Source: Squalus acanthias (taxonomy: Eukaryota). From it: a stretch of DNA of 64,000 nucleotides. Numbering within the stretch: position 1 is the stretch's first letter; every line of letters starts with the position of its first letter. The DNA is taken from positions 54,810,001-54,874,000 of the forward strand of contig CM059432.1 of assembly GCA_030390025.1 (NCBI GenBank), written 5' to 3'. A program made the translations under genes and the position numbers. Positions 12,793 to 14,207 of this stretch are shown here, piece after piece. The notes under the pieces are model-generated. The model was given only the letters and a program-made list of their open reading frames with translations. It did not search any database and was not told the origin of the DNA.

Positions 12793-14207
12793 TCCAATTT
12801 CCACCCTTCCCTCACCTTCACATGGTCCATCTCCGACTCTTCCCTTCCCTTCCTCGACTTCTCCATCTCCATCTCTGGGGATAGGTTATTGACTAACATT
12901 CACTACAAGCCCACCGACTCCCACAGCTACCTGGACTACACTTCCTCCCACCCCGCCTCCTGTAAGGACTCTATTCCATTCTCCCAGTTTCTCCGTCTCC
13001 GCCGCATCTGCTCTGATGATGCCACCTTCCATACCAGTGCTTCCGACATGTCTTCCTTTTTCCTCAACCGAGGATTCCCCTCTACCGTGGTCGACACGGC
13101 CCTCGACCGTGACCGTTCTATCTCCCGCACATCTGCCCTCACCCCTGCCCCTCCCTCCCGGAACCACGATAGGGTTCCCCTTGTCCTCACCTTTCACCCC
13201 ACCAGCCTCCACATTCAACGGATCATCCTCCGCCATTTCCGCCACCTCCAGCGTGATCCCACCACCAAACACATCTTCCCCTCACCTCCCCTTTCAGCAT
13301 TCCGCAGGGACCGCTCCCTCCGCGACACCCTAGTCCACTCCTCTACCACCCCCAGCACCCCTTCCCCTTCGCCCGGCACCTTCCCGTGCACGCGCAGGAG
13401 ATGCAACACATGCCCTTATACCTCCCCTCTTCCCACTGTCCAGGGCCCCAAACACCCCTTCCAGGTGAAACAGCGATTTACTTGTACTTCCTGCAATTTA
13501 GTATACTGTATTCGCTGCTCACGATGTGGACTCCTCTACATTGGGGAGACCAAACGCAGATTGGGTGACCGCTTTGCGGAACACCTCCGTTCAGTCCGTA
13601 AGGGGGACCCCGAGCTCCCGGTGGCCTGTCACTTTAATTCACCGCTTCACTCCCACTCTGACCTCACCGTCCTCGGCCTATTACACTGTTCCACGGAAGC
13701 TCAGCGTAAGCTCGAGGAACAGCACCTCATCTTTCGTTTAGGCACGCTACAGCCCTCTGGACTCAATATCGAGTTCAACAATTTTAGATCATAACCTCAG
13801 CTCCAATCACATTTATATTTTATTTTATCCACCCTTTTATTTGTCCCCCCCACCTTTTTTTTCCTCCTAGAAGCTGGCAGCTGTCCTTCATTCTGCCAGT
13901 GGATTTCACACTTCATTCAGCCTTAATCTGTCACATTAACACCACCTCTAGCCTTGCATATCTCTTAATGTCTCTTAATGTCTCTTCATCTCCTCCTTTG
14001 TTCCTTTATCCCCTCCCCCTTTTCCCAGCTTTACCCTGGCCTTAAATCTATTTGATTTCCAGCTCTTCCCAGTTCTGATGAAAGGTCATCGACCTGAAAC
14101 GTCAACTCTCTTTCTCTCTCTACGGATGCTGCCTGGCCTGCTGAGTTTTTCCAGCGTTTTCTGTTGTTATTTCGGATTTCCAGCATCTGCAGTATTTTGC
14201 TATCGTA
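12793..14207 (+). mobile_element. Penelope-like element copy 2 (RT C-terminus + open GIY-YIG domain + pLTR)
   Basis: Open frame to 13794 with NLVYCIRCSRCGLLYIGETKRRLGDRFAEHL...QPSGLN; closely similar to copies 1 and 3; same tail. Confidence 0.93.
14071..14107 (+). ncRNA. Minimal type I hammerhead ribozyme with canonical GUC cleavage triplet
   Basis: AGTT-CTGATGA-(A)AGGTC-ATC-GACCT-GAAAC-GTC-AACT. Confidence 0.82.

What the first reader, a model, noticed from the sequence alone, without database searches (positions are those of the whole stretch)
14071..14107. Intact minimal hammerhead ribozyme in a Penelope tail ~3 kb upstream of the YES1 promoter
Seen: AGTT CTGATGA A AGGTC ATC GACCT GAAAC GTC AACT. 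This gives a 4-bp stem I (AGUU/AACU), the CUGANGA core, a 5-bp stem II, GAAA and a GUC cleavage triplet, with helix III reduced to the palindrome ACGU. Established: Penelope-like elements carry minimal type I hammerheads in their pLTRs that cleave mainly as dimers through the palindromic helix III. Inference: this is the most canonical copy in the window and could cleave + strand transcripts running through the satellite towards the promoter.
Basis: partly seen in the sequence, partly recalled or inferred. Interest (0 to 1): 0.75.

Follow-up and report, generated by a model that had tools for sequence, protein, structure and literature searches.

The report
Ordinary Penelope hammerhead near shark YES1
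The 37-base motif is a real minimal hammerhead-ribozyme sequence at the tail of a truncated Penelope-like jumping gene in a shark-type genome, a kind described in 2014, and this lone copy is most likely an inert passenger rather than a control device for the nearby YES1 gene.

Summary
The motif is exactly as described. It fits a minimal type I hammerhead descriptor that 0 of 300 shuffles matched with stem I ≥3 bp. It lies 104 nt before the 3' end of a 5'-truncated Neptune/Nematis-type Penelope-like element (about 12790-14207) inserted in a satellite. The class is published (Cervera and De la Peña 2014), and this scan has noted it before in this and other shark-type genomes.

'Most canonical copy' is only partly right. 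Three window copies fit the descriptor. GUC is a minority letter: 5 of 6 window copies and 93-100% of laid depth read GUU. The usual G10.1-C11.1 pair is A-U here.

A monomer cannot close helix III, and the nearest intact sense partner is 8.5 kb away. ViennaRNA predicts that the core pairs with its own cleavage site, and puts the active dimer 9 kcal/mol above two misfolded monomers. Sibling insertions end, at 14-bp target duplications, downstream of the cut site, so their RNA templates were not cut there.

YES1 is confirmed (first coding exon at 49491). Its promoter at about 17.0-17.3 kb is only inferred. Transcription and cleavage were not tested. Verdict: a known kind, likely inert.

The parts
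14071..14107 (+). Minimal type I hammerhead motif: stem I 14071-74/14104-07, core CUGAUGA 14075-81, extra A 14082, stem II 14083-95, GAAA 14096-99, ACGU palindrome 14099-102, C17 at 14103; expected cut between 14103 and 14104
12790..14207 (+). 5'-truncated Penelope-like element copy (RT C-terminal region, linker, endonuclease, 3' pseudo-LTR and tail); no target-site duplication found
   Evidence: 85-90% identical to window copies at 4243-5675 and 37787-38965
12796..13794 (+). Uninterrupted 332-codon C-terminal part of the element ORF
   Evidence: 108 longer relatives, most carrying PF00078, best about 50% identity over 98% of the query
13387..13413 (+). CX4CxxC linker zinc-finger-like motif (present in Neptune and Nematis, absent from Penelope/Poseidon)
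   Evidence: definition in PMC8557442 passages
13495..13605 (+). GIY-YIG endonuclease core with two cysteines between the GIY-like and YIG motifs
   Evidence: Pfam PF01541 E 2.8e-4, 21.5 bits, just under the 22.6 cut-off; translation
14108..14207 (+). End of the pseudo-LTR and the tail, downstream of the cut site. Family copies often diverge behind about 14170-14173 or behind 14201. One frame is open through motif and tail (ATG 14126)
   Evidence: table 7
11440..12790 (.). G-rich satellite (about 20-bp CTGCAG units), left arm of the host array
14208..16800 (.). Same satellite, right arm, between the element and the CpG island
16800..17334 (+). CpG island and candidate YES1 promoter / non-coding first exon (YY1-like motif 17065, recalled label; donor AAG|GTGAG after 17334). 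Inferred, not tested on RNA; an assembly gap follows at 17359-17704
   Evidence: CpG o/e 0.86 against 0.41 for the window
49483..49755 (+). First coding exon of YES1 (ATG 49491), 35.4 kb downstream of the motif
   Evidence: 91% identity to Mustelus asterias Yes; splice sites
5538..5574 (+). Intact sibling hammerhead (GUU, G·U at 10.1-11.1); nearest same-strand intact partner, 8.5 kb upstream
37075..37111 (-). Intact sibling hammerhead (GUU), antisense to YES1
25030..25250 (.). Inverted pair of element tails; both hammerheads broken
43395..43519 (-). Solo tail truncated inside the hammerhead core

Best explanation
The motif is the standard minimal hammerhead sequence in the 3' pseudo-LTR of a 5'-truncated Penelope-like retroelement inserted in a satellite, and this solitary copy likely cleaves little or not at all and likely has no role for YES1. 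Shown: motif anatomy, the element around it, sibling copies, and insertion ends about 100 nt past the cut site. From the literature: such motifs cut weakly, as double hammerheads in tandem element transcripts (ACGU of two copies forms helix III), or with the element's own protein. Inferred: the copy came from an RNA that was not cut at this site. The GUC triplet is probably a recent substitution in this copy or a small lineage, not a selected gain. Any transcript would mostly fold into a hairpin in which UGAUG pairs with CGUCA and buries the core.
For: Descriptor match with 0 of 300 shuffles. Element ORF and motifs. Match to the published consensus including the extra base after A9 and the palindrome. 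U at 14103 in 5 of 6 window copies and in 93.3, 92.8, 100 and 98.2% of laid depth in runs X1, X5, X11, X13. A 470-nt contig piece in X11 differs from the window at one letter, which the depth sums place at 14103. Core:cleavage-site helix P 0.79-0.99 (0.72-0.90 with flanks); active dimer -9.9 against two monomers -19.0 kcal/mol. Three sibling insertions have 14-bp target duplications; for the copy ending at 5675 the duplication starts at 5676, about 100 nt past its cut site. Published: a single S. mansoni motif gave no detectable cleavage. The Anolis motif cleaved only with protein, was dispensable for insertion, and no RNA-seq reads ended at its cut site.
Against: All catalytic residues are intact and GUC is the best triplet. 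Nearest-neighbour energies ignore the non-canonical core contacts that stabilise active hammerheads, so they understate the active fold. The family is abundant in runs guessed to be RNA, so trans partners and the element's protein could be present. No AATAAA/ATTAAA lies on + between 11033 and 17400, so read-through is not blocked by a canonical signal. The X11 contig has depth 4.5, may be a sibling copy, and contigs drop rare variants. 2-7% of depth in three runs is not T at 14103, so GUC may not be unique to this copy.
Confidence: 0.85

Rival explanations
1. The copy is transcribed (from its own pseudo-LTR or by read-through) and is cut at a measurable rate with help from the element protein or a trans partner, but without consequence for the host.
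For: Intact core and GUC; protein-assisted cleavage of a single motif in Anolis; pseudo-LTRs hold the promoter in D. virilis Penelope; family sequence plentiful in runs guessed to be RNA.
Against: Competing hairpin and unfavourable dimer energies; A10.1-U11.1 instead of G-C; templates of sibling insertions were intact across this site.
Confidence: 0.1
2. The ribozyme was co-opted as a cleavage or termination point that shields the YES1 promoter from + strand transcripts crossing the satellite.
For: Sense orientation 2.7 kb before a CpG island; only GUC copy in the window; no canonical poly(A) signal between 11033 and 17400.
Against: The copy looks young: open ORF remnant, CpG o/e 0.71, near-identical sequence in run X11. 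Six motif-bearing copies in 64 kb make one within 3 kb of a promoter unremarkable. No tandem partner. The GUC change does not improve the predicted fold.
Confidence: 0.03
3. The 3' pseudo-LTR acts as an upstream promoter that fires towards YES1, independently of the ribozyme. This is not exclusive of the best explanation.
For: In D. virilis the 3' pseudo-LTR can drive downstream transcription (PMC2377424 Discussion); orientation fits; acceptor-like pyrimidine tracts lie in the tail.
Against: No start site or spliced read was shown; the promoter of this family is unmapped; 2.6 kb of satellite intervenes.
Confidence: 0.05
4. The motif is a chance match.
For: The bare core pattern is at chance level; Rfam finds nothing; no two-sided covariation in 6 window copies.
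Against: Full descriptor in 0 of 300 shuffles; position in the pseudo-LTR as published; the copies are too similar (91% mean column identity) to test covariation.
Confidence: 0.01

Closest known systems
Minimal hammerheads (min-HHR) in the pseudo-LTRs of metazoan Penelope-like elements (Cervera and De la Peña 2014, PMC4209133; parts 1-2 of 4 of the main text and parts 1-2 of 3 of supplement 2 read)
   Same: Type I topology, CUGANGA plus one extra base, 5-bp helix II, GAAA, CG palindrome with no loop 3, NUH triplet, 4-bp helix I, U-rich 5' flank, position at the 3' end of a truncated element.
   Different: A10.1-U11.1 (G·U in part of the family) instead of G-C; host is a shark-type genome, and none of the 56 listed motifs is from a cartilaginous fish; this copy carries GUC where its family mostly has GUU.
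Hammerhead of the Anolis Poseidon element PAc (Frangieh et al. 2024, PMC11167929; passages read)
   Same: Motif in the pseudo-LTR, overlapping an open frame that continues into the tail; insertion ends lie downstream of the cut site.
   Different: PAc is Penelope/Poseidon clade; this element has the CX2-5CxxC linker of Neptune/Nematis. Protein-assisted cleavage is shown for PAc and untested here.
Neptune/Nematis C-terminal-endonuclease Penelope-like elements (Craig et al. 2021, PMC8557442; passages read)
   Same: RT followed by CX2-5CxxC linker and GIY-YIG with internal cysteines; 5' truncation; inverted copies; two preferred 3' ends about 30 nt apart, like the 30-40-bp tail.
   Different: Clade not placed on a tree here; clear 14-bp target duplications in three sibling insertions, none for this copy.
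Non-LTR retrozymes (Li et al. 2026, bioRxiv 10.64898/2026.07.22.740005; parts 1-2 of 5 and passages read)
   Same: Type I hammerhead of Penelope origin; reported from one cartilaginous fish.
   Different: Retrozymes are non-coding tandem repeats with a hammerhead in every unit; here the motif is single, follows an ORF, and the surrounding satellite units carry no hammerhead.

Membership tests
PLE minimal hammerhead (Cervera 2014) | CUGANGA and GAAA boxes with NUH triplet | tested here: met
PLE minimal hammerhead (Cervera 2014) | Extra unpaired base between positions 9 and 10.1 | tested here: met
   A14082; feature stated
PLE minimal hammerhead (Cervera 2014) | Palindromic 15.2-16.2, helix III absent | tested here: met
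   ACGU 14099-14102
PLE minimal hammerhead (Cervera 2014) | Helix I of 3-5 bp and helix II of 4 bp or more | tested here: met
   4 and 5 bp
PLE minimal hammerhead (Cervera 2014) | Usual (highly conserved, not universal) G10.1-C11.1 pair | tested here: not met
   A-U here; A-U also closes helix II in 3 of the 56 published motifs by my reading, so it lowers canonicity, not membership
PLE minimal hammerhead (Cervera 2014) | Location in the pseudo-LTR of a Penelope-like element | tested here: met
   277 nt after the ORF stop and about 100 nt before the element end
PLE minimal hammerhead (Cervera 2014) | Compensatory changes across copies | tested here: inconclusive
   0 of 9 pairs with a two-sided change in 6 copies, one A-U to G·U change; copies too alike; one search hides 31 rows
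PLE minimal hammerhead (Cervera 2014) | Self-cleavage as dimer or with element protein | not testable with these tools
   only folding energies; all laid runs were contigs, which show no ends
Neptune/Nematis Penelope-like element | C-terminal GIY-YIG endonuclease with internal cysteines (CCHH) | tested here: met
   PF01541 E 2.8e-4, just under the cut-off; motif read; relatives
Neptune/Nematis Penelope-like element | CX2-5CxxC linker between RT and endonuclease | tested here: met
   residues 198-206; 88 of 108 relatives have it
Neptune/Nematis Penelope-like element | RT phylogeny placing it in Neptune rather than Nematis | not tested
   no named reference RTs were fetched
Non-LTR retrozyme | Non-coding tandem units, each with a hammerhead | tested here: not met
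   single motif after an ORF; no descriptor hit in the satellite
Rfam hammerhead families | Covariance-model score at gathering threshold | tested here: not met

The most novel reading that the evidence does not exclude
A young Penelope-like insertion gained the optimal GUC triplet and now works, with a trans partner or the element's protein, as a cleavage point that stops satellite-crossing transcripts just before the YES1 promoter: a retroelement ribozyme caught at the start of domestication as a transcriptional insulator in a vertebrate.
Probability: 0.03. Interest if true: 0.7.

Novelty: new member of a known kind. Interest (0 to 1): 0.14.

Why it matters
As it stands it matters little: it adds a shark family to a class known since 2014, and the scan has logged the same kind of motif many times. 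Two points are of some use. First, the family offers natural GUU and GUC variants for the open question of whether and how these ribozymes cleave in vivo. Second, the predicted hairpin that buries the core is a concrete, testable reason why a chaperoning element protein might be needed. If the copy did cut transcripts ahead of YES1, it would be a rare case of a dimer-type ribozyme acting on a host gene.

Tried and rejected
Rfam: no hammerhead model matched. No whole genome is held, so copy number, genome-wide covariation and GUC frequency by copy could not be counted. Pattern scans for family copies: 11 of 11 metagenome hits were chance matches with no hammerhead core or element similarity; 0 viral hits. 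Sequencing runs: no RNA holder listed on record, and none of 13 rows holds half of the words. I laid 4 of these 13 runs on 13640-14240 only. All were contigs, so no start, end or strand could be read and no cut ends were testable; no listed piece spans the stretch, and depth was zero in the last bin (14228-14240), which proves nothing. Depth is higher over the tail than over the ORF end, but summed contig depth is no copy number, so I do not use it. Tail peptides against the N-termini of 56 long relatives gave no convincing match. ESM Atlas gave no usable hit for the YES1 exon. Short Src-family motifs found no further YES1 exon on + in the window. Lünse et al. 2017 is not held; I cite it only through the review PMC6765202 (passages). 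Searches for a shark report: 'hammerhead ribozyme'+'Penelope'+'shark' gave 1 paper, where 'shark' is the animal simile; 'Penelope'+'shark'+'genome'+'Neptune' gave 1 unrelated paper. Unseen supplements (bioRxiv tables of Li et al., file 1 and part 3 of Cervera's) may list this family. Rejected: retrozyme (no tandem units); chance motif; the competing hairpin as unique to this family (9 of 56 published motifs allow it, counted by eye).

Full report
Observation. The quoted 37 bases are at 14071-14107 on the + strand. In hammerhead numbering: stem I AGUU/AACU (14071-74, 14104-07), C3-A9 = CUGAUGA (14075-81), one extra A (14082), helix II AGGUC/GACCU around AUC (14083-95), G12-A15.1 (14096-99), C15.2, G16.2, U16.1, C17 (14100-03). 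The cut would fall between 14103 and 14104. The bare pattern CUGANGA..GAAA is not enriched (8 matches, 6.5 expected). A full descriptor finds 3 sites in the window, and 0 of 300 shuffles give any site with stem I of 3 bp or more. Rfam has no matching model.

Context. The motif lies 277 nt after the stop of a 332-codon open frame (12796-13794). That frame has a GIY-YIG match just under Pfam's cut-off and a CX4CxxC linker. It has 108 longer relatives, most of them carrying PF00078 (reverse transcriptase; label recalled), including a Chiloscyllium protein at 70% over 55% of the query. By the definitions in Craig et al. 2021 (passages) this is a Neptune/Nematis-type Penelope-like element; I built no tree. 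The copy runs from about 12790 to 14207, is 5'-truncated, and interrupts a G-rich satellite of about 20-bp units. It looks young: the frame is open, CpG o/e is 0.71, and run X11 holds a 470-nt piece with one difference. The window has two more large copies and several tails. The exon at 49483-49755 is YES1 (91% to Mustelus Yes), so the host is probably a shark. The promoter is inferred from a CpG island at 16.8-17.36 kb (o/e 0.86), a YY1-like motif (recalled label) and a splice donor after 17334. An assembly gap follows, and no RNA was laid there.

Is this the most canonical copy? It is the only GUC copy among the 6 window copies that cover the site, and GUC has the highest intrinsic rate (PMC3138052 passages). 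But the copies at 5538 (+) and 37111 (-) fit the descriptor equally. In four laid runs T stands at 14103 in 93.3% (X1), 92.8% (X5), 100% (X11) and 98.2% (X13) of summed depth; these are contig depths, not copy counts. The X11 depths of the five records covering 14103 sum to 28.0, and all 28 read T, so the single difference in the 470-nt piece is this base. That contig has depth 4.5 and may be a sibling copy. GUC is therefore a minority letter, probably a recent change; T14121 behaves the same way. Among the 56 published motifs I count by eye 15 CGUU and 13 CGUC, so GUU is no defect in this class. The copy also lacks the G10.1-C11.1 pair that the 2014 paper calls highly conserved. In the window no pair of 9 shows a two-sided change.

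How it most likely works. With no loop 3, a monomer cannot close helix III. The published mechanism is a double hammerhead in which the ACGU of two copies pair and stem I forms between copies. Cervera and De la Peña found no cleavage by a single S. mansoni motif and low cleavage by dimers and trimers. A review reports the same for Lünse et al. (the paper itself is not held). For the Anolis element the motif cleaved only when the element protein was added, core mutants did not affect insertion, and no RNA-seq reads ended at the site. Here the nearest intact sense partner is 8.5 kb upstream. ViennaRNA predicts a hairpin in which UGAUG pairs with CGUCA (pair probabilities 0.79-0.99, and 0.72-0.90 with flanks). 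The innermost stem I pair has P 0.095 in this copy and 0.23 in the two GUU siblings. The active dimer scores -9.9 kcal/mol, against -19.0 for two monomers and -23.7 for the best dimer. These energies omit core tertiary contacts and so understate the active form. The same competing helix is possible in 9 of the 56 published motifs by eye, so it is not unique. A second argument comes from the insertions themselves. Three siblings have 14-bp target duplications, and for the copy ending at 5675 the duplication begins at 5676, about 100 nt past its cut site. Family contigs also diverge behind about 14170-73 and 14201. The RNAs that gave these insertions were therefore intact across the ribozyme (inference). 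I put 0.85 on a passenger motif with little or no cleavage and no role for YES1.

Against this reading: the core is intact; the family is plentiful in runs guessed to be RNA; no AATAAA or ATTAAA lies on + from 11033 to 17400; and pseudo-LTRs can drive downstream transcription in D. virilis (PMC2377424 abstract and Discussion). Transcription or cleavage at this locus was neither shown nor excluded.

Novelty. The class is in print. I found no paper naming this shark family in two searches or among the 56 listed motifs; Li et al. 2026 report retrozymes from one cartilaginous fish (supplements not seen). The scan's own notes list 7 findings holding all my search words, one of them from this genome, and 31 notes in this genome on hammerhead and Penelope; none lies near this window. 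These are unchecked notes and are not counted as support. Verdict: a new member of a known kind, interest 0.14.

Noticed in passing
window 36976-39011: Element copy built like a twin-primed inversion: on the minus strand an inverted 5' part is followed by the sense 3' end with the intact hammerhead, with about 17 nt missing at the break; flanked by a 14-bp duplication (36961 and 39034).
   Followed up: partly
window 1614-5689 and 25018-25266: Two more 14-bp target-site duplications, around the long copy (1614 and 5676) and around the inverted tail pair (25018 and 25253). Three of six insertions checked have a 14-bp duplication; the finding's copy has none.
   Followed up: partly
window 25030-25250: Fold-back pair of tails joined at a 5-nt overlap at the start of the hammerhead core; one arm ends about 40 nt earlier than the other, as expected for a tail at one end only.
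   Followed up: partly
window 14072-14207, 5539-5677, 36972-37110: One reading frame is open through hammerhead and tail in all three intact copies, and the other two frames have stops. It may be the start of the element ORF (ATG 14126). In this copy U7 creates an extra in-frame ATG at 14078. No match to the N-termini of distant relatives.
   Followed up: partly
window 14069-14077 equivalents: 5' ends of short family copies cluster at the 5' edge of the hammerhead (25159/25163, 43519; loose ends before 14069-14070), not at the cut site. Some of the loose ends may reflect subfamily divergence.
   Followed up: no
window 17.3-49.5 kb (candidate YES1 intron 1): The only intact family hammerhead in this stretch is antisense to YES1; the one sense copy (25159) has a broken core. 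Too few copies to call a bias.
   Followed up: no
window 6592-7851 (+) and 8522-9340 (-): A 419-codon frame with DDE_Tnp_4 (E 3.5e-29), Harbinger-like by recall, with a convergent open frame next to it.
   Followed up: no
window 2484-4146: A 1.66-kb insertion with internal repeats (2829-3120 and 3003-3299, 68% alike) splits the RT region of the long element copy.
   Followed up: no
window 11440-16800: G-rich, CpG-poor satellite (o/e 0.23-0.34) that grades into the CpG-rich GC-box repeats of the candidate promoter at 16.8-17.0 kb; it holds a 201-bp higher-order duplication at 15768-16246.
   Followed up: no
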